A stretch of DNA of 56,996 nucleotides from an uncultured Anaerolinea sp. (GTDB lineage: Bacteria; Chloroflexota; Anaerolineae; Anaerolineales; Anaerolineaceae), in NCBI GenBank assembly GCA_964470275.1, contig CAYYBP010000001.1, forward strand, positions 1 to 56,996, written 5' to 3'. The notes under the pieces were generated by a model, which saw nothing but the letters and a program-made list of their open reading frames with translations, was not told the DNA's origin and did no database searches. Shown here piece after piece: positions 14,257-53,642 of the stretch (its first letter is position 1; every line of letters begins with the position of its first letter). Position numbers and translations under genes: made by a program.

Positions 14257-14369
14257 TATTTTACTCCACTTACAGGACGGAAAAAACGCGCTCAAGTTCC
14301 CGCGTTGCGCTATTTTCTATTCTGAAGGTTGACAATCCTTCAGAGTCTGTTAAAATATCCACCAGAAAT

Positions 14370-14454
<85 letters not shown>

Positions 14455-14460
14455 CTCAAA

Positions 14461-14921: not shown

Positions 14922-14954
14922 AAAAAGACTCCTGAAAAATCAGGAGTCTTTTTT
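14922..14954. terminator. Bidirectional intrinsic terminator between convergent genes
   Basis: AAAAAGACTCCTG-AAAAAT-CAGGAGTCTTTTTT. The right arm overlaps the last codons and stop of the GAF-PP2C gene. Confidence 0.8.
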
Positions 14955-19554: not shown

Positions 19555-19681
19555 TGCGCGTGAAGGGGCTTGACACTTGACAGTTAATCCGGCTTGGAAT
19601 TGTGGTATCATGAAAAAAATCGGACTGATACAAGTCACTATCACAGGATATTTCTTAATCAAGAAGAAAAACAGGATCACT

Positions 19682-32498: not shown

Positions 32499-32572
32499 GC
32501 ATAATTATTGCAACATATCCTGTGTAGGTTATGAGAGATTCCAGCCTACAATCACGATTGCAGGAGCTTATC

Positions 32573-37200: not shown

Positions 37201-37207
37201 GGTTTCT

Positions 37208-40778: not shown

Positions 40779-41809
40779 TCGAATCTAAACCTGCAGTAAA
40801 AAAGCTGAATCTGCGGTGGCTGCCGGGTGTGTTGATCAGTGCGGTGGCGATTTTTGCAGTCGTTCGCTTTTCTAATATCAAGGATGTCGGGTCTGCGTTC
40901 CGCTCAGTGAAGGTCAGCTTCCTGTTGCTGCTGGCGGGGTTGAGTGTCCTCACATTGGTGGTAAGAGGAGTTGCCTGGAAGTCCATTCTTGGCAATAAAG
41001 TTAAATTTGACACTGCTTTTTTCGGTGTGTGTGAGGGGTATTTACTCAATAACCTGCTCCCATTCAGGGCCGGTGAACTGGCGCGAGGTTTATTTGTAGG
41101 CAGGTCATCAGGTCTTGGCACAATGCATGTTCTTTCAACCATCCTGATTGAGAGGGCATTTGATATCGTATTTGCTGCCAGCATCTTCCTCCTCACACTG
41201 CCAAGAGTGGTCGGCGCCAGTTGGATGAAACCGGTGGGGTTCACTGCCTTTGCAGTTGTCTTGATCGGGCTGCTCGTTCTATTTCTTATCTCGAAAAATC
41301 GCGAGCGGGTAAAAACATGGATCGAGGCGAGAAAATTCCGCTCGAGTTTTATCAATACCCGCATTGTTCCGCAGGTGAACAAATTGTTGAACGGTCTCGA
41401 AGCACTGGTGAATCCAGCCCAATTCTTCCTCAGCATCTTCTGGATCGGGATGACGTGGGTGTTGTGGGTTCTGATCTATTACCTGGCTGTATCTCAGGTG
41501 GTGAATACAGCCCCACTGTGGTGGGGTGGTTTCATTGCCAGCCTGCTTGCCCTGGGTGTAGCAATTCCCTCTGCTCCGGCAGCGGTGGGTGTGTATGAAG
41601 CTTCCATCGTCGGCGCTTTTTCCATCCTGGGTATTTCAAGCGGGATTGCCCTGGCTTATGGTATTGTCCTTCATGTTGCCCAGATCATTACGACTTCCAT
41701 ATTTGGACTTTGGGGATTGATCAGGGACGGTCAGAACTTTTCAGAAATTCTGACGTCTATTAAATTAAAAAGACAGGCAGAAGAAATCAATAGTGACCAG
41801 GAGTTATGA
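40775..41809 (+). CDS. UPF0104 / lysylphosphatidylglycerol-synthase-TM-like (flippase-like) integral membrane protein
   Basis: 344 aa, about 8 TM helices. [15 protein letters not shown] motif as in the TIGR00374-type family. ATGA overlap with the lepA stop. Confidence 0.65.
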
Positions 41810-42834
41810 TGAAAGGCTTTACATTGATCACCGGCGGAGCAGGTTTTATTGGTTCGAATTATGCTGCCCGGTGCATTGAACGAGGTGAAAAGGTTGTCAT
41901 TTTCGACAACCTATCCAGGCATGGAACCGAAGAAAATATCGAATGGTTGAGCGACCGGTTCAATCGTGATTCCTTCACATTGATTCGGGAGGACATTCGG
42001 GACGCTGAGGGGGTTAAAGCCGCCGCGTCAGGCGCAGACCGCATCCTCCACCTGGCTGCCCAGGTGGCGGTGACCACCTCGGTGACAGACCCGCGGACAG
42101 ATTTCGATATCAATGCCAAGGGTACATTCAACGCCCTTGAAGCAGCCCGCGCATCCGGACGGAAGCCGGCTTTCATATATGCATCCACCAACAAGGTATA
42201 CGGCGCGATGGAAACCGTGGCTGTGGTGGAAAATGAAACCCGCTTTGATTACAAGGACCTTCCGGATGGGGTTTCCGAAGAACAATCCTTGGATTTTCAC
42301 TCACCCTACGGTTGTTCAAAGGGCAGCGGGGACCAGTACGTTCGAGATTACGCGAGGATCTACCAACTGCCCACGGTCGTGTTCAGGCAGTCCTGTATTT
42401 ATGGCACCAGGCAATTTGGCGTTGAGGACCAGGGCTGGCTGGCCTGGTTTATTATCGCCGCTGTAAAACAACGTCCGATCACCATTTATGGGAACGGTAA
42501 ACAGGTCCGGGATGTGTTGTTCATCGACGATCTCCTTGATGCGTATGATGCTGCTTTCGGCCATATCAACACGGTCGCTGGCCAGGTCTTCAATATTGGC
42601 GGAGGTCGTGATAATTCAATTTCGGTCTGGATGGAATTTCGACCCATGATAGAAGCCATGTTGGGGCACCCAGTTAAAACCCGGCAGCGTGATTGGCGCC
42701 CGGGTGATCAGCCGGTTTTTATCTCGAATATCCGGAAAGCGCGCGCCCTGCTTGACTGGCAGCCGAAGGTTAAACTCGACCAGGGAATCAGGCGTTTGTT
42801 TGATTGGGTCATGGATAACCAGATTTTGTTCTGA
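41806..42834 (+). CDS. NAD-dependent sugar epimerase/dehydratase (extended SDR)
   Basis: ITGGAGFIGSNY Rossmann motif, catalytic STNKVYG ... YGCSK (YxxxK). Resembles CDP-paratose/UDP-hexose epimerases. ATGA overlap with the upstream gene. Confidence 0.85.
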   Translation: MMKGFTLITGGAGFIGSNYAARCIERGEKVVIFDNLSRHGTEENIEWLSDRFNRDSFTLIREDIRDAEGVKAAASGADRILHLAAQVAVTTSVTDPRTDFDINAKGTFNALEAARASGRKPAFIYASTNKVYGAMETVAVVENETRFDYKDLPDGVSEEQSLDFHSPYGCSKGSGDQYVRDYARIYQLPTVVFRQSCIYGTRQFGVEDQGWLAWFIIAAVKQRPITIYGNGKQVRDVLFIDDLLDAYDAAFGHINTVAGQVFNIGGGRDNSISVWMEFRPMIEAMLGHPVKTRQRDWRPGDQPVFISNIRKARALLDWQPKVKLDQGIRRLFDWVMDNQILF

Positions 42835-43997
42835 TGAAAATCCTGATCGTGCTTACCTACTATCGTCCACATATCAGTGGGTTGACCATTTACGCTGAGC
42901 GCATCGCGAAGGCGTTCACCGCCCGTGGTCACCAGGTGACTGTGTTGACGTCGCGTTTCGACCAAAGTCTGCCGGGGGAGGAAGTGACGGACGGGGTGAG
43001 GATTGTGCGCGCGCCGGTACTCCTGCGATTGAGCAAAGGCGTGATCATGCCCACCTTTGGCGCCCTGGCAAATCGCCTTGTGAAAGAGCACGACGTGCTG
43101 CAGTTGCATCTCCCTCAATTCGACGCTGCCGGCGTGGCATTGCGCGGGCGGCTGCTTAAGAAACCGACCGTTGTTACCTATCATTGTGACCTTGAATTAC
43201 CACCCGGTATTTTCAACCGCATCGCCAACACGGCCGTGCTGTTGATGAACGATCTGGCAGCGAAATTTACGCACCGCATCGTGACCTATACCCAGGATTA
43301 CGCTGATCATTCCAGCTATACAAGGAAATATCTTCAAAAGGTGCGTGTCATCCCCCCGCCGGTGGTCATGCCGCAGGTAAGCCCGGCGGAAATCCTGGAG
43401 TTTGCCAGGCAGCACAACCTGCGGGGTCGAAAACCGGTGATCGGGATGGCTGCAAGATTCGCCACTGAAAAAGGGGTCGAGGTATTGCTGAGGGCGATCC
43501 CCACGATCCTCAATTCATACCCCCAGGCACTCTTTCAGTTCGTGGGGCCGTATCAGAACCTGATCGGCGAGGAGCAGTACCTGCAGCGCTTGCAGCCAGA
43601 GATCGAAAAATATGAATCCACCGGCAACTGGAAATTCCTGGGCTCGATGTCGCCGGCAGAAATGTCCGCTTTTTACTCGAACCTCGACCTGTTGGTGGTT
43701 CCCAGCCTCAATTCAACCGAAGCATTTGGTTTGGTCCAGATCGAGGCCATGATGCATGGTGTGCGGTGCGTTACCTCAGATCTGCCAGGTGTGCGTCAAC
43801 CGGTCCGGTCGCATGGCATGGGTTCGATCTTCCCGATCGGTGATTCGTCTGAGTTGTCCAGGCAGATCTTACTGGCACTGAAAAAAAATGCTGTTATTGA
43901 AAATGCATATACTGATTTTTCCGTGTATTCTCCGGATAAAATTGCTGAAGCTTACGAACACTTGTTTGACGAGATCGCTCAAGAACTGCAAAAGTAG
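42834..43997 (+). CDS. Glycosyltransferase, GT4-like (GT-B fold, retaining)
   Basis: EX7E region STEAFGLVQIEAMMHGVRCVTSDLPG. N-terminal MKILIVLTYYRPHISG. TGATG overlap with the epimerase gene. Confidence 0.88.
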   Translation: MKILIVLTYYRPHISGLTIYAERIAKAFTARGHQVTVLTSRFDQSLPGEEVTDGVRIVRAPVLLRLSKGVIMPTFGALANRLVKEHDVLQLHLPQFDAAGVALRGRLLKKPTVVTYHCDLELPPGIFNRIANTAVLLMNDLAAKFTHRIVTYTQDYADHSSYTRKYLQKVRVIPPPVVMPQVSPAEILEFARQHNLRGRKPVIGMAARFATEKGVEVLLRAIPTILNSYPQALFQFVGPYQNLIGEEQYLQRLQPEIEKYESTGNWKFLGSMSPAEMSAFYSNLDLLVVPSLNSTEAFGLVQIEAMMHGVRCVTSDLPGVRQPVRSHGMGSIFPIGDSSELSRQILLALKKNAVIENAYTDFSVYSPDKIAEAYEHLFDEIAQELQK

Positions 43998-44023: not shown

Positions 44024-47000
44024 TTGTTAGAAGAGACTGATCAAGACACTCTCCATGGTGGAAGGAAGAAACCACCTGTCAACCGTTCCTGGGTGTGGGA
44101 TGTGTTGCTGATCGGTATTCTTCTTATCAGCGCATACCTGAGGTTTACGGGGATCAACTGGGACGCGAACCAGCATCTACACCCGGACGAGCGTTTCTTA
44201 ACCATGGTGGAAACCTCTCTCACCCCGGTTAAGGACCTGGCCGAGTATTTTGATTCTGCCCGGTCGAGCATGAACCCCAATAACCACGGTTTCACGTTCT
44301 ATGTGTACGGGACCCTGCCGATTTTCCTTGTCCGCTATGTTGGGGAGTGGATCGGTCAGACGGGGTACGACCAGATCAACATTGTAGGCAGGGTGCTCTC
44401 AGGTATCTTTGACCTGGGCACAATTGTTTTCATCTATTTGATCGGCAAGCGCATTTACAGGCATCCACGGCTCGGGTTGCTGGCAGCGTTGTTCAGCGGG
44501 CTGGCGGTGTTGCAAATTCAGCTCTCGCATTATTTCACAGTAGACAACTTTGCCAACTTTTTCACATACGGCGCCATTTATTGCGCGGTTTGTATCTCCA
44601 CACAGAACCACCAGTCTGAAAATAAACCTGATACCCAGGCAGAGCGAGAAAACAAATCCCGGGTGCCGGCCTGGTTGACAACTGGATGGCGCTGGTCGGT
44701 TCCGTATCTTCTGTTTGGGTTACTTTATGGCATGGCGCTGGCATCCAAATTAAGCATCTGGGCGCTTGCTGTGCTCTTACCACTCGCGGGTTTGCTCGCA
44801 TATCTCAAGACCCCGTCTGAAAACCGGGAAACCAGCGTGCCGCTCATTATCCGCAACCTGGCAGTCGCGGGCATCCTGGCTTTCTTAACTTTTAGATTCT
44901 TCCAGCCATACTCATTTATGGGTCCGGGTTTCTTCGGTCTAAAGTTGAACCCGGGCTGGCTCTCCAGCATGCGTGAACTTTCCACGCTCATGAAGGGAGA
45001 CGTGGACGTGCCGTACGCTCTGCAATGGGCCAGGCGGCCCGACACCTTCACGATTCAGAACCTGGTGCTGTGGGGGCTCGGGATTCCATTGGGGGTTCTT
45101 TCCCTTGTGGGGCTGCTCTGGATGACCTGGCGGATGATAAAAGGTGACTGGCAAAAGCATGTTCTAATCTGGAGCTGGACGGTTTTCGTGCTGGTCAATC
45201 AGTCACTCACCTTTGTTAAAAGCATGCGGTATATCATCTCCATTTATCCAGCGCTGGCGCTCATCGCGGCATGGACGATATTCAAGCTTTTCGAGAAAGC
45301 TGGTGTTTCAGGCGTAAAGCTCAAATCGATACCTTTCAATTGGCGTCGGATGCTGGCTGTCTCTGTTACAGCGCTCACAATCATAAGCACTTTTCTTTGG
45401 GCGTTTGCTTTTCTTTCCATATACCAGAAACCGGTCACCCGGGTGGCTGCAAGTGATTGGATCTACGAAAACATACCGGCAGCGATCAACCTTCACATTG
45501 AGGGGGCCGACGGACAGAAAATTACCCAGCCGGTTGCTTATCAGAACACGGCTGTGATCTCGGCGGAAACCCCTTACACTTACCATTTTACGATCGACCA
45601 GCCAGCCCAGTTATCCGTGGTAGAGGTGGAGAATGTGCTCAGCCAATCCAGCGACACCGGATTGGTCTCGATCCTTGCCACGGTTTATAAAATTGACGGG
45701 GAAGCCCGCACAATTAGCGGGGCAGGCTTCTTGCAATCCGAGTTCCGCGGCACATCTGATTCCAGGGGAGACCTGGCATCAATCATTTTAGATCAACCGG
45801 CTTTGCTTGAGACTGGCGCTCAGTACCTCCTGGAGCTAAGCGTGGCTGAGTCTGATGTTTTCCTGCGCATAGGTGGTGGAGTAAGCTTGAAATTGGATCA
45901 GGAAGAGCTGCTCCTGCCATCCCCAGTCTATAAATTAACTCAAAATTCACCTTTCCAGGTGAACTTTGTACCGAGAGCAACAGGCGAATTCTCCGCCTTA
46001 ACGCTGCACAGGGTCGTGGACCTTGCCGGCACCAACGAGGACAGTGTATTAACCGCCTTGCTGATGGATCCGAACGATCCACAGCAGATCCTCGCTTCGG
46101 GCGAAATCATCGCTAATTTTAAGCCGCAGGATGACCCGCGCGGTGAAAGCGCGACCATCCAGCTGGATAAACCTGTCAACCTTGACGATACCCACATGTA
46201 TACCCTGGTGCTGACCGTGGGTGGTAAAGCTGAGCTTGGCATCTACAACAGCGTAACCGTGCTTGAATCTACCTGGGATGACGCCCTACCGGTTGGATTA
46301 CATGGATTTAACCAGTTTGGCTACTGGGATGGTATATACGGGAATAATCTGAATCTGGAGTTGTACTGGGACGATAATCAGGCGAAACTTGACCGCCTTG
46401 AGACGATGCTCAACCGTGGTGATGCGATCTTCATGAGCTCGAACCGCCAATGGGGAACAATCCCAAGGGTGCCTGAGAGATACCCGTTGACCACCGAGTT
46501 TTACCGCGCGTTGATCGGCTGCCCCGAAAATGAGGATATCCTCAAGTGTTTTGCGATCGCAGAACCGGGGCGTTATCAGGGTGAGTTGGGATACGAGTTA
46601 ACCGCGGTCTTTCAAAATGACCCGGCGATAGGGAATCTCCGGATCAATGACCAGCGGGCGGAAGAAGCATTTACCGTGTATGACCATCCCAAGGTCCTCA
46701 TCTTCACCAAAAGCGCAGATTATGATCCTGCCCGGGTGGAGCGCATCCTGGGGGCGGTGGATCTCACTACCGCGGTACATAAGACCCCGCTGCAGGCTAC
46801 CAGGATCGGGGGCAATCTGCGCTTGAGCGCGGACGCTTCAGCCATCCAGACCTCTGGTGGCACCTGGGTGAAACTGTTCCCGCCGGATTCGCTGTTGAAC
46901 AGGCTGCCCTGGCTGGCGGCGGTAACCTGGTACCTGGTCATTCTACTGCTTGGTTGGATAATTTACCCGATAACCCGTTTTTTCCTGGCAGGGCTGCCAG

Positions 47001-49357
47001 ATCGCGGCTACACATTCAGCCGCCTTATCGGCATCCTGGTCGTTGCCTATCTTGCGTGGCTGGCCGGATCGATCGGATTTTCATTCAGCCGCCTGACGAT
47101 TTCGATCCTTTTAGTGCTATTACTATTGATCAATGGATTGATATTCGTGCGAAAGCGGACAGACATCCTTGATGAAGTGAAAAAGAACCGGCGGCTGATA
47201 CTGACCGCTGAGCTGGTCATGCTGGCATTCTTCCTGGTTGACCTGGCGATTCGCATCGGCAATCCCGACCTGTGGCACCCCTGGAAGGGCGGTGAAAAGC
47301 CGATGGACCTGTCTTATTTCACCGCGGTGCTCAAGAGCACGACCTTTCCGCCGTATGATCCCTGGTATTCAGGCGGATACATCAATTACTACTACTATGG
47401 TTTTGTCGTGGTGGGAGTGTTGGTCAAGTGGCTGGGGATTCAACCCGCCGTGGCTTACAACCTGATCATTCCCACTCTTTTTGCGCTTACCGGACTCGGT
47501 GCTTTTGGTATAGGTTGGAACCTGTTTTCACGAAGGGATACGACCGATACCGAAGATGATCCCCAATCCAGGATTGCGGGTAAACGAAGTTTATTCGCAG
47601 GGCTGGCATCTGCGGTCGGCGTTCTAATTGCAGGCAACCTGGGTACAATCAGGATCTTCTGGCTGGGGCTGCAACGCCTGGGATCTCCGGATGGGCTGAT
47701 CGACAATGCCCGGTTCTTTCAACCGATCGGCTGGTTTTTTGCCGGTTTGGGCAGGTTCATCACGGGCAGCAAACTGTCGGTGGGAATGGGTGAATGGTAT
47801 TGGAATCCTTCACGCGCAATTCCGGGGGATGTGATCACTGAATTTCCCTTCTTCACGTTCACCTACGCGGACCTGCACGCGCATATGATCGCGCTGCCCA
47901 TCACCTTGCTGGTATTGGGTTGGGCGGTATCTGTTCTGTTTCGAAAATGGCAGCCTTTCACTGACAAACCCTGGAAGGACTGGATTTCACTGGCAGGACC
48001 GATTCTATTTGGCGGATTTGTCATTGCGACCCTCCGACCTACCAACACATGGGACCTGCCGACGTATTTATTGTTTGGAATTATCGTACTTCTATATACG
48101 GTCATCCGTTATGCGGAATTACCAACGAACTTTTTTGCGGGGCTGTCTGGGTGGTTGCGAAAGTTGATATTTGCCCTGCTGCTAGTTGGGATTCTCGTCG
48201 CGGCGGTTCAGGTATTCTATCTTCCGTTCTCTCAACATTATGGCCAGGCATACGGCGCGCTCGATCCATGGAAAGGAGCGCACAGCCCGTTGAAGGACTA
48301 CCTTGTGCATTGGGGCTGGCAGCTTTTCCTGATTACCACCTGGTTTGCCTGGGAGACGCGCGAATGGCTGGCTGCCACGCCGTCCTCGGTTGTCCCAAAG
48401 ATCAAGCCCTACCTGGGTTACCTTCAGCTGGTATTATTCCTGCTTCTGCTTGTGATGATCCTGTTGACCCTGCTGGGGATCAATATCGGGTGGATTGTGG
48501 GGATTCTCGGAGCCTGGGCGCTCGTGCTGTTACTGCGCAAAGACCAGCCGGATGCCAAACGGTTTATCCTGTTCATGATCGGCACCGGGCTGGTACTGAC
48601 GCTTTTCGTTGAGTTATTTACCCTGCAGGGGGATATCGGCCGCATGAACACGGTCTTTAAGTTCTATTACCAGGCATGGACCCTTCTCAGCCTGGGGGCA
48701 GGGGCGGCGTTAATCTGGCTCTTACCCCCGGTCACCACGGCCTGGAAATCCGGAGTTGCCACCGCCTGGCAGGTGATCCTGGTGCTGCTGCTTTCTGGAG
48801 CGCTTCTATATCCAGTTACAGCCAGCGCCGACAAAATTCGCGATCGAATGTCAGACGAAGCGCCGGCGGGGCTGAATGGCGACGCCTACATGTTAACCTC
48901 GACCTACAATGATATGGGGGTGGATTTGGATCTCTCCCGTGATTACCAGGCGATACAGTGGATGCGGATGAACGTCAAGGGATCGCCAGTGATCGTTGAA
49001 GCCAACACGGTCGAGTACCGCTGGGGGAACCGCTTCACCATCAACACTGGTCTGCCGGGAGTGCTTGGATGGAACTGGCACCAGCGTCAGCAGCGGGGTT
49101 TCCTGGATTACAACGGCATAACCAATCGTTTGAACGAGATCCCACTCTTTTACCAGACGACCTCTGTGGAAGAAGCGCTCTCGTTTATTGACAGGTACAA
49201 TGTGAAATATATCATTGTGGGCCAGCTTGAAAGGGTCTATTATCCCGGTGAGGGGCTGAACAAATTCGAGAAATATAACGGGGTTTACTGGAAGGAAGTC
49301 TTCCGGTTGCAGGACACGGTTATTTACGAAGTAATTGCGCGCGATGGGGATTCATGA
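44024..49357 (+). CDS. Giant (1777 aa) polytopic membrane protein with three parts: an N-terminal PMT/ArnT-like GT-C region, a duplicated extracytoplasmic module and a C-terminal Chlor_Arch_YYY (DUF2298) domain
   Basis: TTG start with GGAG upstream. N-terminal loop motif HPDER...NNHGF after TM1. Soluble region at about aa 480-950 with an internal duplication. The C-terminal ~820 aa carry GEKPMDLSY...FPPYDPWYSGGYINYYYYG, EFPFFTFTYADLHAHM and RMNTVFKFYYQAW, paralogous to the next ORF. Confidence 0.8.
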   Translation: MLEETDQDTLHGGRKKPPVNRSWVWDVLLIGILLISAYLRFTGINWDANQHLHPDERFLTMVETSLTPVKDLAEYFDSARSSMNPNNHGFTFYVYGTLPIFLVRYVGEWIGQTGYDQINIVGRVLSGIFDLGTIVFIYLIGKRIYRHPRLGLLAALFSGLAVLQIQLSHYFTVDNFANFFTYGAIYCAVCISTQNHQSENKPDTQAERENKSRVPAWLTTGWRWSVPYLLFGLLYGMALASKLSIWALAVLLPLAGLLAYLKTPSENRETSVPLIIRNLAVAGILAFLTFRFFQPYSFMGPGFFGLKLNPGWLSSMRELSTLMKGDVDVPYALQWARRPDTFTIQNLVLWGLGIPLGVLSLVGLLWMTWRMIKGDWQKHVLIWSWTVFVLVNQSLTFVKSMRYIISIYPALALIAAWTIFKLFEKAGVSGVKLKSIPFNWRRMLAVSVTALTIISTFLWAFAFLSIYQKPVTRVAASDWIYENIPAAINLHIEGADGQKITQPVAYQNTAVISAETPYTYHFTIDQPAQLSVVEVENVLSQSSDTGLVSILATVYKIDGEARTISGAGFLQSEFRGTSDSRGDLASIILDQPALLETGAQYLLELSVAESDVFLRIGGGVSLKLDQEELLLPSPVYKLTQNSPFQVNFVPRATGEFSALTLHRVVDLAGTNEDSVLTALLMDPNDPQQILASGEIIANFKPQDDPRGESATIQLDKPVNLDDTHMYTLVLTVGGKAELGIYNSVTVLESTWDDALPVGLHGFNQFGYWDGIYGNNLNLELYWDDNQAKLDRLETMLNRGDAIFMSSNRQWGTIPRVPERYPLTTEFYRALIGCPENEDILKCFAIAEPGRYQGELGYELTAVFQNDPAIGNLRINDQRAEEAFTVYDHPKVLIFTKSADYDPARVERILGAVDLTTAVHKTPLQATRIGGNLRLSADASAIQTSGGTWVKLFPPDSLLNRLPWLAAVTWYLVILLLGWIIYPITRFFLAGLPDRGYTFSRLIGILVVAYLAWLAGSIGFSFSRLTISILLVLLLLINGLIFVRKRTDILDEVKKNRRLILTAELVMLAFFLVDLAIRIGNPDLWHPWKGGEKPMDLSYFTAVLKSTTFPPYDPWYSGGYINYYYYGFVVVGVLVKWLGIQPAVAYNLIIPTLFALTGLGAFGIGWNLFSRRDTTDTEDDPQSRIAGKRSLFAGLASAVGVLIAGNLGTIRIFWLGLQRLGSPDGLIDNARFFQPIGWFFAGLGRFITGSKLSVGMGEWYWNPSRAIPGDVITEFPFFTFTYADLHAHMIALPITLLVLGWAVSVLFRKWQPFTDKPWKDWISLAGPILFGGFVIATLRPTNTWDLPTYLLFGIIVLLYTVIRYAELPTNFFAGLSGWLRKLIFALLLVGILVAAVQVFYLPFSQHYGQAYGALDPWKGAHSPLKDYLVHWGWQLFLITTWFAWETREWLAATPSSVVPKIKPYLGYLQLVLFLLLLVMILLTLLGINIGWIVGILGAWALVLLLRKDQPDAKRFILFMIGTGLVLTLFVELFTLQGDIGRMNTVFKFYYQAWTLLSLGAGAALIWLLPPVTTAWKSGVATAWQVILVLLLSGALLYPVTASADKIRDRMSDEAPAGLNGDAYMLTSTYNDMGVDLDLSRDYQAIQWMRMNVKGSPVIVEANTVEYRWGNRFTINTGLPGVLGWNWHQRQQRGFLDYNGITNRLNEIPLFYQTTSVEEALSFIDRYNVKYIIVGQLERVYYPGEGLNKFEKYNGVYWKEVFRLQDTVIYEVIARDGDS

Positions 49358-51930
49358 TGGATGAGGTGCCTGTCGTACTCGCGTTTTACGCGCTTTCCAC
49401 GCTGTTGGGATTGACCGCGCTGCCGTTTATTTATCGTTTTCTTCCCAATCTGCCCAGCCGCGGATTCGCGCTTGCCCGCCCATTGAGCCTGCTGGTGTGG
49501 GGCTATCTTTTCTGGCTGTTGTGCTCGCTTGGGGTGCTGCAAAACAACGCCGGCGGGATGCTTGTGGCTTATGGCGGGCTGCTGGCGATTTCCATCTGGT
49601 CCCTCCGCCGCACGGGCTTACATGAATTTACCGGTTGGCTAAAACAAAACCTGGGCACCATTCTCACGGCTGAAGCGCTTTTCATTTTATTCTTTGTGGG
49701 ATGGACCCTCGTGCGGGGAATGGATCCGGATGTGGCGTACACGGAAAAACCGATGGAACTGGCGTTTATTAATTCCATTCTGCGTTCGCCGACTTTTCCT
49801 CCCCATGACCCCTGGTTATCAGGGTACGCCATTTCGTATTACTACTTTGGGTATGTGGTAATCGCCATGCTCGCGAAGCTCTCCGGGGCAGCCTCTGCGG
49901 TGGCTTTCAATTTATCGAGCGCCTTATGGTTCGCGATGACAGCTGCCGCGCTGTATGGCGTTGTGTTTGATATCCTCAAACATTGGATCACGAAACGGAA
50001 GAAGGAAGATCTTCCTGCTCAAGTGAAATTTGCCAGGAATGGAGCTTTTCTTGCTCCGCTATTCGTGTTAATAACCAGTACCCTCGAAGGCCTGCTGGAA
50101 ATCCTGCACGCCGGAGGAATTTTCTGGAAGACCGACGCCGGGGGTGTTTACACCTCCAGATTTTGGTCCTGGTTGTCGATCCTGGATCTCGATCAGCCCC
50201 CCATACTGCCATTCGATTGGATTCCTTCACGCTCAGGCGGGTGGTTGTGGTGGCGCGGCTCCAGGGTGATTCAAGACCTGACCCTGGGAAACCAGCACGT
50301 CGAAGTGATCGATGAGTTCCCGTTTTTCTCGTATCTTCTGTCCGACCTTCACCCGCACGTGCTGGCGATGCCCTTTGCTATCCTGGCGATCGGTGTGAGT
50401 CTCAATTTTCTCCTTGGCGTAGAATCCTTTCACGGGAAATTTAATGGGATCTTTGAATGGATGCGAAGCTGGAAATTCTGGCTGACAGCGCTCATACTGG
50501 GCAGCATGGCGTTTTTCAACACCTGGGATTTTCCCATCTACGTGGGGCTGTTTTGCCTGGTCTGGTTCTATTCCCGGATTACCGAGAGCGGCTGGAAGAA
50601 AAGGCATGTTTGGGAATTCATCAAGAACGGCATGGTGCTGGGTGTGACGGGTGTGGTGCTCTTTCTACCGTTTTACCTCGGGTTTTCCTCGCAGGCTGGC
50701 GGTATCCTGCCGAGCCTTGAATTCATGACCCGCGGCATCCACTTTTGGGTGCTTTTCGGGGTTCTGCTGGTGCCGATCATCGCCTGGTTGATCCACACGT
50801 TCAGAATCAAAGGCACAGGAAATACATTGATCGCTGGCCTTCGGATTACTTTGATCGTGTTATCCGGCTTATTCCTGTTGTCAGTTATTTATGGGGCGAT
50901 TCTCTTTTCGTTTTCTGTGGTCGGCGATCAATGGGCTCAGTCCACGAATCCTTTCCTGGCGAGCCTGGGGGCCAAACTGCTTCAAGCCGGTAGCGCTTTC
51001 GCCGGGGTGCATGGTGGTTACCCGGCAGCCGAAGTGCTCAAACAGAGCCTCCTAAGAAGGATCGTATCGCCCGGCACCTGGCTCACGCTGGTGGGTATCC
51101 TGACTCTCATGCTGGGTTCATTGCTCAAACCCCGCGTCGGCCAAAGTGAACTTAACACAACGGAAGGAAATGTTGCGACCGACGATCACCATCGCTCGAA
51201 GTCAGAAGTTTTTCTACTCATTCTTTTGCTGATTGGTGGAGCGCTGATCGTATTTCCCGAATTCTTCTATTTGCGTGACCAGTTCGGCACGCGTATGAAC
51301 ACGATCTTCAAATTCTATTTCCAGGCGTGGATGCTATGGGGAATCGCTGCGGCAGCCGGGAGCGCGATCCTGTTCCGCAGTCTGCGCGGATGGCGGGCAG
51401 TTCTCTTTCAGACCACCTGGTGGATCGTTTTGGCAGCCAGCCTGGCTTACCCGGCAATCATGTTATGGAATAAAACCGACCAGTTTTCCATGGCTGACTG
51501 GACCCTGAACGGGAACGCATTTATCCAGCGATATAATCCGGACGAATATGATGCCATCCTATGGATGCAAAAAGCGCCTTTGGGTATCGTCACTGAAGCC
51601 ATTGGCGGCAGTTACAGTGATTACGCCCGGGTTTCGACCCGGTCTGGGCAACCCACCGTTTTGGGGTGGCCAGGCCACGAGAGCCAGTGGCGCGGCGGCG
51701 CAGAGGAAATGGGCAGCCGTTACGGAGATATCGAAGAATTGTATGAAACCAGGAATTGGGAGCGGGCGGCAGATATTCTGCAAACCTACGGAGTCCGTTA
51801 TGTCTATGTCGGAAATCTCGAACGCTCAACCTACCAGGTGAACACCGGCAAGTTTGACGAGATGTTGATGAAGGCATACACTAACGAAAGTGTTACTATC
51901 TACCAGGTGCCCATGGGCATCGGGCAATAA
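49354..51930 (+). CDS. Chlor_Arch_YYY (DUF2298/TIGR03662-like) polytopic membrane protein
   Basis: 858 aa. TEKPMELAF...FPPHDPWLSGYAISYYYFG, EFPFFSYLLSDLHPHV, RMNTIFKFYFQAW, C-terminal soluble domain YGVRYVYVGNLER. ATGA overlap with the giant ORF. Confidence 0.8.
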   Translation: MMDEVPVVLAFYALSTLLGLTALPFIYRFLPNLPSRGFALARPLSLLVWGYLFWLLCSLGVLQNNAGGMLVAYGGLLAISIWSLRRTGLHEFTGWLKQNLGTILTAEALFILFFVGWTLVRGMDPDVAYTEKPMELAFINSILRSPTFPPHDPWLSGYAISYYYFGYVVIAMLAKLSGAASAVAFNLSSALWFAMTAAALYGVVFDILKHWITKRKKEDLPAQVKFARNGAFLAPLFVLITSTLEGLLEILHAGGIFWKTDAGGVYTSRFWSWLSILDLDQPPILPFDWIPSRSGGWLWWRGSRVIQDLTLGNQHVEVIDEFPFFSYLLSDLHPHVLAMPFAILAIGVSLNFLLGVESFHGKFNGIFEWMRSWKFWLTALILGSMAFFNTWDFPIYVGLFCLVWFYSRITESGWKKRHVWEFIKNGMVLGVTGVVLFLPFYLGFSSQAGGILPSLEFMTRGIHFWVLFGVLLVPIIAWLIHTFRIKGTGNTLIAGLRITLIVLSGLFLLSVIYGAILFSFSVVGDQWAQSTNPFLASLGAKLLQAGSAFAGVHGGYPAAEVLKQSLLRRIVSPGTWLTLVGILTLMLGSLLKPRVGQSELNTTEGNVATDDHHRSKSEVFLLILLLIGGALIVFPEFFYLRDQFGTRMNTIFKFYFQAWMLWGIAAAAGSAILFRSLRGWRAVLFQTTWWIVLAASLAYPAIMLWNKTDQFSMADWTLNGNAFIQRYNPDEYDAILWMQKAPLGIVTEAIGGSYSDYARVSTRSGQPTVLGWPGHESQWRGGAEEMGSRYGDIEELYETRNWERAADILQTYGVRYVYVGNLERSTYQVNTGKFDEMLMKAYTNESVTIYQVPMGIGQ

Positions 51931-51953
51931 GAGCGAGGCTGAGCATAACATCC

Positions 51954-53642
51954 ATGCGTAAACCCAACCTGGAAATCCTTTTATACACGGTGTTAGTGAT
52001 CATCGCCGTGTTATTCAGGTTTATTGTGCTTGGATCCCAGCCGTTGGACGATCATGAGGCTTCGCTGGCATTGCAATCACTGCATGTCAGCCGGGGGGTG
52101 GATGTGCATTTGAGCGGCGAACCCGGGCTGATCGCCCTGAATACAGTGCTGTTCTTCATGTTTCGAACAAGCGACCTTTTGGCGCGCGTTCTACCGGCTT
52201 TGTTTGGTGCTTGCCTGGTTCTCGTTCCGTTGTTGTTCCGCGAGCGGGTGGGTCGCTCATCTGCGTTAATCTTCTCCTTATTCCTTGCTATCGATCCTTT
52301 GCTCGTTGGTGTTTCGCGTACTGCAGATGGGGCAACCCTGGCGATGCTTGGTTTGCTGGCAGGCATCGGTTTCTGGTTGAACCGGCGCTGGATTCTGAGC
52401 GGGATCGCTTTTGGAGCAGCCTTACTTGGAGGTGTTCACCTGTGGGCGGGCTTGATCGCGATGTGTATCGTGTGGATCCTCTTTAGAAAGCGAATTAGCC
52501 AACTCTATCAGCAGGAAACACCGGCAAAACCATGGTTGACTATCATCGCAGGCGCGGTATCCGTACTGATCGTCAGCACGTTGTTCCTGATCCATCCAGC
52601 CGGCATCAGCGCGCTGGGAGCAGGCGTGATCGATAATATTGTCTCCTGGGGTCAGGCATCAACGCAGCCTCTGGGCGGGCTCATGCTCGGCTGGGCGTTG
52701 ACCCAATTCCCGTTGATCATCGTTGCTGTGTGGGGCGGCCTCCATGCAGCTTTCCGTAAAGATCAGACCGTCCTCCCGCTGGCGGTATGGTGGGTGTTGG
52801 GACTGGCTCTCGTTGTGCTCAATCCCTCCCGTACTCTGAACGATTTCTATTGGACATCAATCCCGCTCATCCTCTTGGCGGCGACTGGTGTTAAGCATAT
52901 TTTCAACGGTTTGCGGTTTGACCAACGCACGGTGACCATCGCTGAGGCCGGTCTGACGCTTGTCCTGTTGGGTTTTTCATTCCTGAATACTGTGAACCTG
53001 CTCAATTCGCCCTACCTTGCTCCAGAGGTGTACCAGAACCACCTGATCGGCGCGTTGCTCCCGCTTATACTCCTGGTCGCGGTGAGCTTTTTGCTGGCGT
53101 GGGGCTGGTCTGCCGCGGCGACGCGCACCGGGTTTATCCTTGCCATCTTTGCGATTATTGGCGTCTCCCAACTTTCTGCCACAGCCAAAACAGCCGCGAT
53201 CACATCATACCCTGAAAATAACCTCTTTTCCTCCGGGTATCCGGTTGGAGCATCACCGATGGTTATAACCATCAAGGACCTGTCGAAATGGTCGACCGGA
53301 ATTGATCATCGCCTGGACGTGCAAATCGCCGGGCTGCGTATGGCATCACTGGAATGGCAGTTGAGGGATTTTGACAATTTATCCGTTGAAGAGGTCATCG
53401 ACCCGATCCTTTCTCCTTCGGTTGTGATCACCCCGTTGTCAACAGAAATGGCGGCGGCAGAAGCGTATCGCGGACAGAAGTTCGCCTGGACCATCCGTCC
53501 TGACATCAGATCGATGAAACCGATGGATTGGATGAAATGGTCGCTCTTCCGGGTCGCTCCGCCGAACAAAACCGAGATCATCCTCTGGGCAAAGAACGAA
53601 CTTTTCCCGGGCAGTACACAACCCCAACCGATTGGAGAATGA
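51954..53642 (+). CDS. Polytopic GT-C-like membrane protein (PMT_2/ArnT-like, possibly TIGR03663-related, with a divergent acidic motif)
   Basis: 562 aa, about 11-13 TM helices. The first loop after TM1 carries PLDDHEASLAL. C-terminal ~150-aa soluble domain. The family call is weak and rests on topology and motif position. Confidence 0.6.
   Translation: MRKPNLEILLYTVLVIIAVLFRFIVLGSQPLDDHEASLALQSLHVSRGVDVHLSGEPGLIALNTVLFFMFRTSDLLARVLPALFGACLVLVPLLFRERVGRSSALIFSLFLAIDPLLVGVSRTADGATLAMLGLLAGIGFWLNRRWILSGIAFGAALLGGVHLWAGLIAMCIVWILFRKRISQLYQQETPAKPWLTIIAGAVSVLIVSTLFLIHPAGISALGAGVIDNIVSWGQASTQPLGGLMLGWALTQFPLIIVAVWGGLHAAFRKDQTVLPLAVWWVLGLALVVLNPSRTLNDFYWTSIPLILLAATGVKHIFNGLRFDQRTVTIAEAGLTLVLLGFSFLNTVNLLNSPYLAPEVYQNHLIGALLPLILLVAVSFLLAWGWSAAATRTGFILAIFAIIGVSQLSATAKTAAITSYPENNLFSSGYPVGASPMVITIKDLSKWSTGIDHRLDVQIAGLRMASLEWQLRDFDNLSVEEVIDPILSPSVVITPLSTEMAAAEAYRGQKFAWTIRPDIRSMKPMDWMKWSLFRVAPPNKTEIILWAKNELFPGSTQPQPIGE

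What the first reader, a model, noticed from the sequence alone, without database searches (positions are those of the whole stretch)
44024..53642. Three giant GT-C-like / Chlor_Arch_YYY membrane proteins, one a fusion of the other two types: candidate undescribed glycosylation machinery
Seen in the sequence: three consecutive polytopic ORFs (1777, 858 and 562 aa) occupy 9.6 kb. The C-terminal ~820 aa of the 1777-aa protein align by eye along the whole 858-aa protein:
- [44 protein letters not shown] vs TEKPMELAFINSILRSPTFPPHDPWLSGYAISYYYFGYVVIAML
- EFPFFTFTYADLHAHMIALP vs EFPFFSYLLSDLHPHVLAMP
- RMNTVFKFYYQAWTL vs RMNTIFKFYFQAWML
- YNVKYIIVGQLERVYY vs YGVRYVYVGNLERSTY
The N-terminal ~480 aa of the giant form a separate multi-TM block. 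Its first loop reads HPDER...NNHGF. The 562-aa ORF has PLDDHEAS at the equivalent position after TM1.

Established, from memory: the YYYxG motif defines TIGR03662/DUF2298 (Chlor_Arch_YYY). This family is restricted mainly to Chloroflexi and Archaea and has no known function. A partner family, TIGR03663, is PMT-like with invariant DE and HGP and usually sits nearby.

Inference: the giant ORF is a Rosetta-stone fusion of a TIGR03663-like module and a YYY module, which then recur as separate neighbouring genes in the opposite order. That argues the two act as one machine. The acidic first-loop motifs and the topology fit GT-C glycosyltransferases that use polyprenyl-phosphate sugars outside the membrane. 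The acceptor is unknown; candidates are a lipoglycan, a sheath or S-layer polymer, or the Thr/Pro linkers.
Basis: partly seen in the sequence, partly recalled or inferred. Interest (0 to 1): 0.78.

Follow-up and report, generated by a model that had tools for sequence, protein, structure and literature searches.

The report
Conserved Anaerolineae operon of GT-C-type membrane glycosyltransferases
Three adjacent giant membrane proteins carry four modules with the fold of lipid-linked-sugar glycosyltransferases; the gene set is conserved across the Anaerolineae, already sits in known but uncharacterised families, and probably builds an unknown cell-envelope glycan.

Summary
The C-terminal ~820 aa of the giant is a paralogue of the 858-aa protein. 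Both are clear members of Chlor_Arch_YYY / DUF2298.

AlphaFold models and Foldseek place the giant's N-terminal block in the GT-C fold (AglB, Pmt4, STT3, EmbA/B/C, ArnT). They place the YYY module there too, less strongly (DPY19, AftA, plus an AglB-like C-terminal domain). The conserved acidic and histidine motifs are predicted to face outward.

The giant's N-module is not TIGR03663-like. It is a PMT_2/GT39-like subfamily, only remotely related to the 562-aa protein (hhalign 85%). The 562-aa protein is a divergent relative of TIGR03663, now named "flippase activity-associated protein Agl23".

The giant-YYY-Agl23-like triad is intact in 41 Anaerolineae genomes among the 80 loci fetched, including the cultured genera Ornatilinea and Bellilinea. 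A GT4 gene usually lies upstream and cmk downstream.

Most likely this is an outward-facing glycosylation assembly line that uses polyprenyl-phosphate sugars and is primed by a flipped glycolipid. The acceptor and the sugars are unknown. I rate it a new member of known, uncharacterised families, of moderate interest.

The parts
44024..45478 (+). Giant ORF, N-module (aa 1-485): PMT_2/GT39-like GT-C module of about 11 TM helices. The HPDE motif (aa 53-56, nt 44180-44191) lies in the first extracytoplasmic loop.
   Evidence: Homologues carry PF13231/PF02366. HPDE is invariant in 49/49 orthologues. AlphaFold pLDDT 86, and Foldseek finds AglB, Pmt4, STT3, Emb, ArnT and PglB.
45479..46891 (+). Giant ORF, middle region (aa 486-956): acidic extracytoplasmic region with two beta-sandwiches (aa 488-747) and an alpha/beta domain (aa 780-950). 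Candidate carbohydrate-binding or spacer region.
   Evidence: AlphaFold secondary structure. No Pfam or NCBIfam hit. Among 1.84 billion representatives there are 1716 hits at E<=1e-3, and in 50 of the best 150 the region lies mid-protein in 1500-1924-aa proteins. The long Foldseek alignments to EmbA/EmbB/EmbC are only suggestive.
46892..49357 (+). Giant ORF, C-module (aa 957-1777): Chlor_Arch_YYY / DUF2298 module with EKPM (aa 1091-1094), YYYY (aa 1122-1125), EFPFF..DLHAH and RMNT.
   Evidence: TIGR03662 517 bits, PF10060 392 bits. BLASTP vs ORF2 E 1e-42 and 3e-20. All candidate catalytic residues are conserved in 50 giant orthologues.
49354..51930 (+). Stand-alone YYY / DUF2298 protein (858 aa), about 16 TM helices plus a C-terminal globular domain. 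Its start overlaps the giant's stop codon.
   Evidence: TIGR03662 486 bits. AlphaFold pLDDT 85.9, pTM 0.90. Foldseek: CeDPY19 7.7e-6, AftA 2.7e-3, AglB C-terminal domain probability 0.99. E131, D152, Y162, Y163, E321, D331, H333, H335, R647 and N649 are invariant in 77 orthologues, and Y164 is kept in 72 of 77.
51954..53642 (+). Divergent TIGR03663 / Agl23-like PMT_2-superfamily membrane protein (562 aa) with a DxEA motif (D33, E35) after TM1. Either a fourth GT-C module or a lipid-linked-sugar translocator.
   Evidence: TIGR03663 41.6 bits (cut-off 126.25), E 8e-11. 44/44 relatives hit TIGR03663, best 7e-55. hhalign to the N-module family 85%. E35 conserved 60/61, D33 D/E 55/61.
40775..41809 (+). 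UPF0104 / PplT flippase-like membrane protein (the MprF flippase domain family).
   Evidence: PF03706 E 2e-36. TIGR00374 'flippase-like domain' above cut-off. 4-nt overlaps with lepA upstream and the epimerase gene downstream.
41806..42834 (+). SDR-family NDP-sugar epimerase/dehydratase.
   Evidence: PF16363/PF01370. Hits to GalE and RmlB models are below cut-off, so the substrate is unknown. Present in >=28/56 related loci, a flank-limited count.
42834..43997 (+). GT4 (GT-B) cytoplasmic glycosyltransferase, the candidate primer-glycolipid synthase.
   Evidence: PF00534/PF13439. Upstream of the giant in 49/56 related loci. GT4 + UPF0104 pairs make and probably flip glycosyl-phospholipids (gpgSDF, PMC12713373).
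53639..54349 (+). Cytidylate kinase (cmk). Its start overlaps the stop of the 562-aa ORF. It is probably co-transcribed; a role in the system is not shown.
   Evidence: PF02224 E 1e-69. Gene call in L002. Downstream in 46/56 related loci.
37208..38080 (-). UbiA-family polyprenyl-phosphate phosphoribosyltransferase (DPPR-synthase type), a possible source of a polyprenyl-P-pentofuranose donor. Linkage to the system is tentative.
   Evidence: NF008977 277 bits vs cut-off 234, and NF008978 242 vs 207. Syntenic in L084, L001 and L036, but tlyA and lepA lie between it and the cluster.

Best explanation
The region is the core of a conserved Anaerolineae operon: (tlyA-lepA)-UPF0104 flippase-like-SDR epimerase-GT4-giant-YYY-Agl23-like-cmk. 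It encodes an extracytoplasmic glycosylation assembly line.

Shown: three proteins carry four large polytopic modules. These are one PMT_2/GT39-like GT-C module, two paralogous YYY/DUF2298 modules with a GT-C-like fold and an OST-like C-terminal domain, and one Agl23-like PMT_2-superfamily protein. Each module keeps invariant acidic, histidine or arginine residues in loops predicted to lie outside the membrane. The gene set is inherited as a block.

Inferred mechanism: on the cytoplasmic face, the epimerase supplies a nucleotide sugar and the GT4 glycosylates a membrane lipid. The UPF0104 protein flips this primer. On the outer face, the GT-C modules transfer sugars from polyprenyl-phosphate carriers onto the growing glycan. 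The carboxylate at the start of the first outer loop (D55/E56 in the N-module, E131 of EKPM in YYY) would act as catalytic base. The beta-rich middle domain of the giant would hold the glycan acceptor. The Agl23-like protein would either add a further sugar or translocate the polyprenyl-P-sugar donor.

The most likely product is a lipid-anchored or wall-linked envelope glycan, by analogy with PIM -> LM/LAM. It may contain pentofuranose supplied through the nearby DPPR-synthase-like UbiA.

My confidence is about 0.75 that these are outward-acting enzymes dependent on lipid-linked sugars, about 0.4 that the acceptor is a glycolipid or polysaccharide rather than protein, and about 0.2 for a pentofuranose donor.
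For: - Family membership of the YYY modules.
- N-module: AlphaFold pLDDT 86, pTM 0.85. 33 Foldseek hits reach E<=1e-3. All but three (phage baseplate and tail-fibre proteins) are GT-C enzymes: AglB, Pmt4, STT3, EmbA/B/C, ArnT, PglB and ALG12/9. ALG3, AftA and AftD follow at weaker E-values.
- YYY: AlphaFold pLDDT 85.9, pTM 0.90. The only significant Foldseek hits are GT-C enzymes: DPY19 7.7e-6 and AftA 2.7e-3. The AglB C-terminal globular domain scores probability 0.99, and Pmt1/2 scores 0.84.
- Topology: KR-rich short loops alternate with acidic long loops. The N-module has an odd number of helices, which puts the acidic 488-aa middle region outside, and the YYY module starts N-out. This places HPDE, EKPM, D152, YYY, EFPFF/DLHPH and RMNT on the outer face.
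- Conservation: HPDE 49/49. E131, D152, E321, D331, H333, R647 and N649 are kept in essentially all of 50 giants and 77 stand-alone YYY proteins. E35 of the Agl23-like protein is kept in 60/61.
- Linkage: the fused giant is intact in 49 of the 80 fetched loci, and the complete triad is present in 41. GT4 is upstream in 49/56 loci. The block also occurs in a different genomic context in L087.
- Translational coupling between neighbouring genes.
- Precedents: GT4 + UPF0104 make and probably flip GlcNAc-PG (PMC12713373). Archaeal UPF0104 genes neighbour PMT/STT3-like and AglD-like GT genes (PMC5898192). PPPRS + flippase + SDR epimerase + GT-C with a CBM form a known system type (PMC11127046). Agl23 itself has a published activity (PMC11182771).
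Against: - No biochemical or genetic data exist for any DUF2298 protein.
- The fold match of YYY to GT-C is moderate (TM-scores 0.3-0.46). Profile-profile comparison of YYY with the PMT_2-like families finds nothing.
- No polyprenyl-phosphate hexose synthase (GT2) lies in the cluster.
- The UbiA gene is on the other strand, separated by tlyA and lepA, so its proximity may be plain synteny.
- The topology rests on hydropathy, the positive-inside rule and AlphaFold helices, not on a dedicated predictor.
- The 562-aa protein was not modelled.
- The only characterised TIGR03663 member is reported as a translocator, not a transferase.
- Some Anaerolineae carry a stand-alone YYY gene with no partner genes nearby (L045, L074, L078).
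Confidence: 0.55

Rival explanations
1. The machine glycosylates proteins rather than building a lipoglycan. The PMT-like N-module and the YYY modules, with their OST-like C-terminal domain, would transfer sugars from polyprenyl-phosphate carriers to secreted or S-layer proteins, for example onto Thr/Pro-rich linkers. YYY would then be a new family of protein glycosyltransferases shared by Archaea and Chloroflexota.
For: The best structural matches of YYY and the N-module include protein glycosyltransferases: DPY19, a C-mannosyltransferase; Pmt4 and Pmt1/2, O-mannosyltransferases; and AglB, STT3 and PglB. The YYY C-terminal domain resembles the AglB C-terminal globular domain (probability 0.99, TMt 0.46-0.50). 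In H. hispanica, Agl23 is described as supplying Dol-P-hexose for N- and O-glycans. The window encodes a LysM protein with long Thr/Pro-rich linkers (19577-20407).
Against: The GT4 + UPF0104 pair upstream points to a glycolipid primer. The Emb and AftA matches, and the beta-sandwich middle domain, fit a glycan acceptor equally well. No acceptor-peptide motif such as WWDYG was identified. No glycoproteomic data exist for Anaerolineae.
Confidence: 0.25
2. The 562-aa Agl23-like protein, and possibly other modules, is not a transferase. It would be a scramblase or flippase that moves polyprenyl-phosphate sugars or lipid-linked oligosaccharides across the membrane for the true transferases.
For: NCBIfam names TIGR03663 'flippase activity-associated protein Agl23'. 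Purified H. hispanica Agl23 translocated M5GN2-PP-lipid in proteoliposomes and rescued yeast rft1-delta (PMC11182771). The 562-aa family lacks a DE dipeptide, having DxE instead. It scores far below the TIGR03663 cut-off.
Against: The family belongs to the PMT_2/GT-C superfamily (PF13231 on relatives; hhalign to the N-module family). It keeps a near-invariant carboxylate, E35, at the position of the catalytic acid. The operon already encodes a flippase-like UPF0104 protein. The window protein is only a distant relative of Agl23, so the function may not carry over.
Confidence: 0.3
3. The three genes are unrelated neighbours kept together only by conserved synteny within one bacterial class, and the fusion has no functional meaning.
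For: Housekeeping genes (lepA, tlyA, cmk) are equally syntenic. All 80 loci examined come from one class. Some stand-alone YYY genes occur without partners.
Against: Start and stop codons overlap or are separated by short gaps. A gene fusion has been maintained in 49 of 80 loci and in >=50 clusters at 50% identity. The block recurs in a different genomic context in L087. From memory, the TIGRFAMs text also notes that TIGR03662 and TIGR03663 are neighbours in Archaea.
Confidence: 0.05

Closest known systems
TIGR03662 / PF10060 (Chlor_Arch_YYY, DUF2298) proteins of Chloroflexota and Archaea
   Same: Both YYY modules pass the curated cut-offs, carry the YYYxG motif and match the family's length and hydrophobicity. 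Orthologues are annotated 'YYY domain-containing protein' or 'DUF2298 domain-containing protein'.
   Different: Nothing family-level differs. The giant adds an N-terminal PMT_2-like GT-C module and a beta-rich middle region. From memory, the multi-domain class in the TIGRFAMs text has two YYY copies plus TPR repeats, which is a different architecture.
Agl23 of Haloarcula hispanica (TIGR03663, 'flippase activity-associated protein')
   Same: The 562-aa protein and all 44 of its relatives match TIGR03663. It is a polytopic PMT_2-superfamily protein encoded next to a YYY gene.
   Different: It scores 41.6 bits against a cut-off of 126.25. It has DxEA instead of the DE and HGP motifs I recall for the family. 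It is bacterial, so the carrier would be a bacterial polyprenol rather than dolichol. Its activity has not been tested.
Mycobacterial GT-C arabinosyl- and mannosyltransferases (EmbA/B/C, AftA, AftD, PimE) in the PIM -> LM/LAM and arabinogalactan pathways
   Same: There are structural matches to EmbA/B/C, AftA and AftD. A large extracytoplasmic beta-rich region is attached to the GT-C core. The logic is the same: a cytoplasmic GT4 step (PimA-like) precedes outer-face GT-C steps. A DPPR-synthase-type UbiA lies nearby.
   Different: No sequence-level relationship was found. No DprE1/DprE2 genes are in the window. The organism is a Chloroflexota member whose envelope glycans are unknown. Two GT-C modules sit in one polypeptide.
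Three-component extracytoplasmic glycosylation systems (GtrA/GtrB/GtrC type; PPPRS-MATE flippase-GT136 pentofuranose systems, PMC11127046)
   Same: The components are lipid-carrier sugar synthesis, a flippase and a GT-C transferase, with an optional SDR epimerase and a CBM on the GT-C.
   Different: The flippase candidate here is UPF0104, not MATE or GtrA. The cytoplasmic GT is GT4, not GT2. There are four GT-C-type modules instead of one. GT136 membership was not tested.
gpgSDF of Pseudomonas aeruginosa and hexSDF of Clostridioides difficile (GT4 + deacetylase + UPF0104 flippase making aminoglycosyl lipids)
   Same: The upstream genes pair a GT4 with a UPF0104 flippase-like protein.
   Different: An SDR epimerase takes the place of the deacetylase. 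The GT4 matches the GlcNAc-PG synthase model only weakly (28 bits against a cut-off of 480). The pair is followed by GT-C genes.

Membership tests
TIGR03662 / PF10060 (Chlor_Arch_YYY, DUF2298) | Score above the curated HMM cut-off | tested here: met
   Giant aa 963-1770: 516.8 bits. ORF2: 485.6 bits (cut-off 300.25). PF10060: 392 and 350 bits (cut-off 27.8).
TIGR03662 / PF10060 (Chlor_Arch_YYY, DUF2298) | YYYxG motif in a strongly hydrophobic 700-900-aa region | tested here: met
   YYYYG (giant aa 1122-1126) and YYYFG (ORF2 aa 162-166). Y162 and Y163 are invariant and Y164 is kept in 72 of 77 stand-alone YYY proteins; all three are invariant in the 50 giants.
TIGR03663 (Agl23 family) | Score above the curated HMM cut-off | tested here: not met
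   ORF3 scores 41.6 bits against a cut-off of 126.25 (E 7.7e-11). All 44 relatives match, best E 6.9e-55. It is a divergent relative, not a member by NCBI's rule. The giant's N-module has no hit, and only 12/57 of its relatives hit weakly.
TIGR03663 (Agl23 family) | Invariant DE dipeptide and HGP tripeptide near the N-terminus (as I recall the TIGRFAMs description) | tested here: not met
   The ORF3 family has D33-x-E35-A36 and (Q/E)-P-G instead. The recalled definition could not be checked against the model text.
TIGR03663 (Agl23 family) | Encoded near a TIGR03662 gene | tested here: met
   ORF3 lies directly downstream of ORF2. The complete giant / stand-alone YYY / Agl23-like triad is present in 41 of the 80 related loci fetched.
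TIGR03663 (Agl23 family) | Lipid-linked sugar translocation activity | not testable with these tools
   Known only for H. hispanica Agl23 (PMC11182771).
GT-C fold glycosyltransferase superfamily | Structural similarity of the membrane core to solved GT-C enzymes | tested here: met
   N-module: AglB 2.1e-8, Pmt4 6.2e-7, STT3, Emb, ArnT, PglB. YYY: CeDPY19 7.7e-6 and AftA 2.7e-3, both probability 1.0, with modest TM-scores of 0.3-0.46. ORF3 was not modelled; its link is hhalign 85% to the N-module family and PF13231 on its relatives.
GT-C fold glycosyltransferase superfamily | Conserved carboxylate at the start of the first long extracytoplasmic loop | tested here: met
   D55/E56 (49/49), E131 of EKPM (127/127) and E35 (60/61). 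All are placed outside by the positive-inside rule and the AlphaFold helices. Topology is predicted, not measured.
GT-C fold glycosyltransferase superfamily | Use of a polyprenyl-phosphate or -diphosphate-linked sugar donor | not testable with these tools
   Needs biochemistry.
GT39 / PMT protein O-mannosyltransferases (PF02366, PF13231) | Pfam PMT or PMT_2 match | tested here: inconclusive
   The window's N-module gives no Pfam hit even at E 10, but most homologues at 35-60% identity carry PF13231 and/or PF02366.
GT39 / PMT protein O-mannosyltransferases (PF02366, PF13231) | Luminal MIR domain between TM helices and protein O-mannosylation activity | tested here: not met
   No MIR domain was detected. 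The extracytoplasmic region is C-terminal and beta-sandwich rich. Activity was not tested.
Polyprenyl-P-pentofuranose three-component systems (PPPRS + flippase + GT136) | PPPRS / DPPR-synthase gene associated with the GT-C gene | tested here: inconclusive
   The UbiA at 37208-38080 passes the DPPR-synthase equivalog cut-offs. It lies on the opposite strand, 6 kb away, beyond tlyA and lepA. Synteny was seen in only a few loci with enough flank.
Polyprenyl-P-pentofuranose three-component systems (PPPRS + flippase + GT136) | GT-C of CAZy family GT136 and a MATE flippase | not tested
   No GT136 sequence or model was available. No MATE gene lies in the cluster.

The most novel reading that the evidence does not exclude
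YYY/DUF2298 would be a previously unrecognised catalytic family of GT-C glycosyltransferases with an OST-like C-terminal domain, shared by Chloroflexota and Archaea. Together with a PMT_2-like module and an Agl23-like partner, it would build a class-wide but chemically undescribed Anaerolineae envelope glycoconjugate. This could be a LAM-like lipoglycan, possibly containing pentofuranose, or a new type of protein glycosylation. If the latter, the archaeal homologues could be the missing outer-face transferases that use the Dol-P-hexose handled by Agl23.
Probability: 0.25. Interest if true: 0.75.

Novelty: new member of a known kind. Interest (0 to 1): 0.42.

Why it matters
DUF2298/Chlor_Arch_YYY is a large family: alone found 6869 cluster representatives among the scored candidates. 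No experimental function turned up in the papers I could search. The envelope chemistry of Anaerolineae, which are abundant in sludge, sediments and the subsurface, is essentially unknown.

This analysis assigns the family a GT-C-like fold. It gives a list of invariant outward-facing residues, a conserved operon partner set, and cultured organisms that carry the operon (Ornatilinea apprima, Bellilinea caldifistulae). That turns a domain of unknown function into a testable hypothesis.

It also bears on the debated role of Agl23-type proteins as flippase or transferase. The gain is incremental: the families, their adjacency and the GT-C character of the PMT_2 partners were already on record.

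Tried and rejected
- Pfam and NCBIfam scans of the giant's N-module and middle region alone gave no hits even at E 10.
- Sequence and profile searches of all three families against PDB sequences gave nothing usable. The best hit was GPI mannosyltransferase 1 at E 0.009 for the Agl23-like profile.
- hhalign of the YYY profile against the N-module and Agl23-like profiles found no relationship (probability 1-2.5%). The GT-C assignment of YYY therefore rests on structure only.
- Apparent 'stand-alone' N-module proteins of 700-870 aa on long contigs (P0001, P0007, P0011, P0051) looked like split architectures. They proved to be frameshift fragments of fused giants in long-read assemblies.
- The L087 locus first looked like a true split of N-module and middle+YYY with a 4-nt overlap. 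Reading the junction shows the second frame continues the homologous sequence upstream of the stop. A sequencing frameshift is likelier, so I do not count it as a split.
- L076 is the only convincing variant in which the giant-type YYY lacks the N-module and middle region.
- Promoter and terminator scans were no better than shuffled sequence.
- Literature searches for DUF2298, PF10060, TIGR03662, TIGR03663 and Chlor_Arch_YYY gave no functional paper. The 'YYY domain' hits refer to the unrelated Y_Y_Y domain.
- The primary Agl22/Agl23 paper (Lu et al. 2020) is not held.
- An assembly-artefact explanation for the fusion was rejected.

Full report
**1. Observation**

The giant's stop codon overlaps the ATG of the 858-aa ORF. 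The quoted motifs are all present.

BLASTP of the giant against the 858-aa protein gives two collinear segments. One covers aa 957-1415 vs 1-453 (E 1e-42). The other covers aa 1527-1740 vs 633-827 (E 3e-20). Both proteins pass the curated cut-offs of PF10060 (DUF2298) and TIGR03662 (Chlor_Arch_YYY) by a wide margin.

An identical giant occurs in an independent Logan assembly.

**2. What the other parts are**

*The 562-aa protein.* It matches only TIGR03663, and below cut-off (41.6 bits against 126.25, E 8e-11). NCBI now names this family 'flippase activity-associated protein Agl23'.
- Its 44 aligned relatives all match TIGR03663 (best E 7e-55).
- The more distant relatives carry PF13231 (PMT_2).

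*The giant's N-terminal 485 aa.* They have no Pfam or NCBIfam hit of their own.
- They have 454 significant homologues among the scored candidates. Most carry PF13231 and/or PF02366 and are annotated 'GT39', 'ArnT family' or 'phospholipid carrier-dependent glycosyltransferase', nearly all from Anaerolineae.
- In an alignment of 57 sequences, H53-P54-D55-E56 is invariant.

*How the two relate.*
- BLASTP between the N-module and the 562-aa protein finds nothing.
- hhalign of the two family profiles gives 85% probability (E 5.8e-6) over about 180 columns, from TM1 through the first loop. It aligns E56 of the giant with E35 of the 562-aa protein.
- Only 12 of 57 N-module relatives touch TIGR03663, and weakly.

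The two are therefore remote relatives within the PMT_2/GT-C superfamily, not 'the same type'.

**3. Structures**

*Giant aa 1-960.* The AlphaFold model has pLDDT 86 and pTM 0.85.
- It shows a helical membrane module (helices 22-468), two beta-sandwich regions (aa 488-747) and an alpha/beta domain (aa 780-950).
- Foldseek against the PDB returns 33 hits at E<=1e-3. All but three (phage baseplate and tail-fibre proteins) are GT-C enzymes: AglB 2e-8, Pmt4 6e-7, STT3, EmbA/B/C, ArnT, PglB and ALG12/9. ALG3, AftA and AftD follow at weaker E-values.

*The 858-aa YYY protein.* The model has pLDDT 85.9 and pTM 0.90.
- Its only significant matches are the C-mannosyltransferase DPY19 (E 7.7e-6, probability 1.0) and arabinosyltransferase AftA (E 2.7e-3, probability 1.0).
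- The C-terminal globular domain of AglB scores probability 0.99 (TMt 0.46-0.50). Pmt1/2 scores 0.84.
- All other hits have probability below 0.2.
- TM-scores are modest (0.3-0.46), and profile-profile comparison with the PMT_2-like families finds nothing.

I therefore call YYY 'GT-C-like' with moderate rather than high confidence.

**4. Topology**

I combined the AlphaFold helices with hydropathy and the positive-inside rule.
- The N-module starts inside (RKK before TM1) and has an odd number of TM helices (about 11).
- Its C-terminus and the acidic 488-aa middle region (65 D/E against 35 K/R) are therefore outside.
- The YYY module begins N-out, both in the giant and as a separate protein. 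This makes the fusion topologically coherent.
- In the 858-aa protein, every short K/R-rich loop falls on one side: residues 30-41, 84-99, 209-229, 355-372, 413-421, 484-488, 591-613 and 674-680.
- The motifs EKPM (131-134), D152, YYY (162-164), EFPFF..DLHPH (321-335) and RMNT (647-650), and the C-terminal domain, fall on the other side.
- In both the N-module and YYY, the conserved carboxylate sits at the start of the first helix of the first long outer loop, as in GT-C enzymes.

This is a prediction, not a measurement.

**5. Conservation and linkage**

A scan of one genome per GTDB species with the YYY alignment found more than 572 relatives. The best 80 loci are all Anaerolineae. They include the cultured Ornatilinea apprima and Bellilinea caldifistulae.

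I built HMMs for the four modules and ran them on all ORFs of these loci.
- 49 loci have an intact fused giant of 1583-1859 aa.
- 7 loci have the giant broken into adjacent ORFs.
- 12 are cut by a contig end, and 12 show no N-module. Of these 12, most are short contigs and one has a scaffold gap.
- 41 loci show the complete order giant / stand-alone YYY / Agl23-like.

Two variants stand out.
- L076, a rumen MAG, has a giant-type YYY without the N-module and middle region, preceded by a different PMT_2 protein.
- L087 carries the four-module block in a wholly different genomic context. Its apparent split is probably a frameshift.

'Stand-alone' N-module proteins in long-read MAGs are frameshift fragments.

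A full-library HMMER search with the middle region alone found 1716 cluster representatives at E<=1e-3. In 50 of the best 150, it sits mid-protein in 1500-1924-aa proteins. The fusion is therefore old and widespread.

Putative catalytic residues are conserved.
- E131, D152, E321, D331, H333, R647 and N649 are kept in essentially all of 50 giants and 77 stand-alone YYY proteins, and Y162/Y163 are invariant. Both paralogues are therefore under the same constraint.
- HPDE is kept in 49/49 N-modules.
- E35 is kept in 60/61 Agl23-like proteins, and D33 is D/E in 55/61.

**6. Context**

Upstream, with overlapping or abutting reading frames, lie these genes:
- lepA;
- a UPF0104/PplT flippase-like protein (PF03706, TIGR00374);
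- an SDR NDP-sugar epimerase/dehydratase;
- a GT4.

cmk follows, and its start overlaps the stop of the 562-aa ORF. In related loci, GT4 is upstream in 49/56 and cmk downstream in 46/56. The epimerase and UPF0104 counts (>=28 and >=13) are limited by the flank fetched. Many relatives carry an additional methyltransferase and a fifth GT-C gene (PMT_2, about 720 aa) between GT4 and the giant.

About 6 kb upstream on the other strand is a UbiA protein that passes the NCBIfam equivalog cut-offs for decaprenyl-phosphate phosphoribosyltransferase. It sits next to mevalonate kinase and isopentenyl phosphate kinase.

**7. Mechanism**

Literature precedents fit a two-compartment pathway.
- GT4 + UPF0104 operons make, and probably flip, glycosyl-phospholipids or glycolipids: gpgSDF in P. 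aeruginosa and hexSDF in C. difficile (PMC12713373).
- Archaeal UPF0104 genes neighbour PMT/STT3-like and AglD-like GT genes (PMC5898192).
- PplT domains are often fused to GT-B domains in Chloroflexi (bioRxiv 10.1101/2022.03.11.483950).
- Extracytoplasmic pentofuranosylation uses PPPRS (UbiA) + flippase + GT-C with a CBM, plus an optional SDR epimerase (PMC11127046).
- From established knowledge, mycobacterial PIM/LM/LAM synthesis starts with GT4 enzymes inside the cell and continues with GT-C enzymes outside.

I therefore propose the following. The trio makes and flips a glycolipid primer. The four GT-C-type modules extend or decorate it outside from polyprenyl-phosphate sugars. The middle domain acts as a glycan-binding element.

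Every step of this pathway is inferred. What is shown is limited to the folds, the conserved outward-facing residues and the genetic linkage.

Two alternatives remain open. One is a protein acceptor, given the similarity to OST, PMT and DPY19 and the Thr/Pro-rich LysM protein in the window. The other is a translocator role for the Agl23-like protein (PMC11182771).

**8. Comparison with what is known, and novelty**

- The YYY modules are members of TIGR03662/PF10060.
- The 562-aa protein is a sub-threshold relative of TIGR03663/Agl23.
- The N-module belongs to the PMT_2/GT39-like part of the GT-C superfamily. It lacks a MIR domain, so it is not a classical PMT.
- No paper in the held library gives a function for DUF2298.
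- The families and (from memory of the TIGRFAMs text) their adjacency were already recorded. The same operon is present in public genomes of cultured species.

The window therefore holds a new member of a known but uncharacterised kind.

What this analysis adds:
- a structural GT-C-like assignment for YYY;
- the OST-like C-terminal domain;
- the list of invariant outward-facing residues;
- the class-wide fused architecture;
- the operon model.

Interest is moderate. It would be high only if the glycoconjugate or a new transferase activity were demonstrated.

Noticed in passing
window 35441-38080 (-): A UbiA protein passes the curated cut-offs for decaprenyl-phosphate phosphoribosyltransferase (DPPR synthase). 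It sits in a row with mevalonate kinase (TIGR00549) and an archaeal-type isopentenyl phosphate kinase (NF040647). This suggests an alternative mevalonate pathway and a polyprenyl-P-ribose type lipid in an Anaerolineae genome.
   Followed up: partly
window 19577-20407 (+): A membrane-anchored LysM-domain protein with long Thr/Pro-rich linkers (TKTPTPTLTFTPTATVPSPTPTMTATVTETATPTMTDTPS and a C-terminal TQTPTFVPTSTLSNAPTQPTATVTP). It is a plausible O-glycosylation substrate. The surrounding 18-20 kb stretch has the lowest GC of the window, 0.50.
   Followed up: no
window 13237-14295 (-) and 572-1963 (-): A LytR-CpsA-Psr family protein and a TagF-like CDP-glycerol glycerophosphotransferase. Both are hallmarks of wall-linked anionic glycopolymers in monoderm bacteria, here in a Chloroflexota genome.
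   Followed up: no
window 14940-18755 (-): A 1271-aa protein with five GAF domains and a C-terminal SpoIIE/PP2C phosphatase domain. tRNA-Leu(CAG) lies at 14370-14455, and a XerC/integrase-like gene at 12251-13144.
   Followed up: no
window 32531-33736 (+): A 401-aa ORF with no Pfam or NCBIfam match. It has two hydrophobic segments, a Pro/Thr-rich stretch and a very acidic linker (EEDIDYIEEEVAEESEEPVMAETPEELDIEE).
   Followed up: no
L009 2389-5490; L058 2390-5507; also L083-L085, L088: Most related Anaerolineae have an extra SAM-methyltransferase gene and an extra PMT_2 GT-C gene (about 720-740 aa) between GT4 and the giant. Both are absent from the window's lineage. Several also have a small DUF952 gene between the giant and the stand-alone YYY gene.
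   Followed up: partly
window 45479-46000 (giant aa ~491-654): My middle-region HMM matches twice in the window's giant (aa 491-654 and 628-969). It matches only once in the shorter giants of 1600-1690 aa. The window's lineage therefore carries an extra beta-sandwich of about 130-150 aa, an internal duplication.
   Followed up: partly
L086 15696-21479 (-): In a more distant relative, the N-module carries an N-terminal helix-hairpin-helix (HHH_3) extension. The neighbouring genes are PMT_2 proteins fused or adjacent to PA14 domains. A similar DUF2298 / PMT2-PA14 neighbourhood is listed for 'Chloroflexi bacterium 44-23' in PMC8756737.
   Followed up: no
window 30195-32498 (+): Topoisomerase I with an N-terminal DUF5679 domain.
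   Followed up: no
L045, L074, L078: Some Anaerolineae bins carry a stand-alone YYY gene in an unrelated context (downstream of a DEAD-box helicase, or next to a tRNA synthetase). No giant or Agl23-like gene lies in the fetched flanks.
   Followed up: partly
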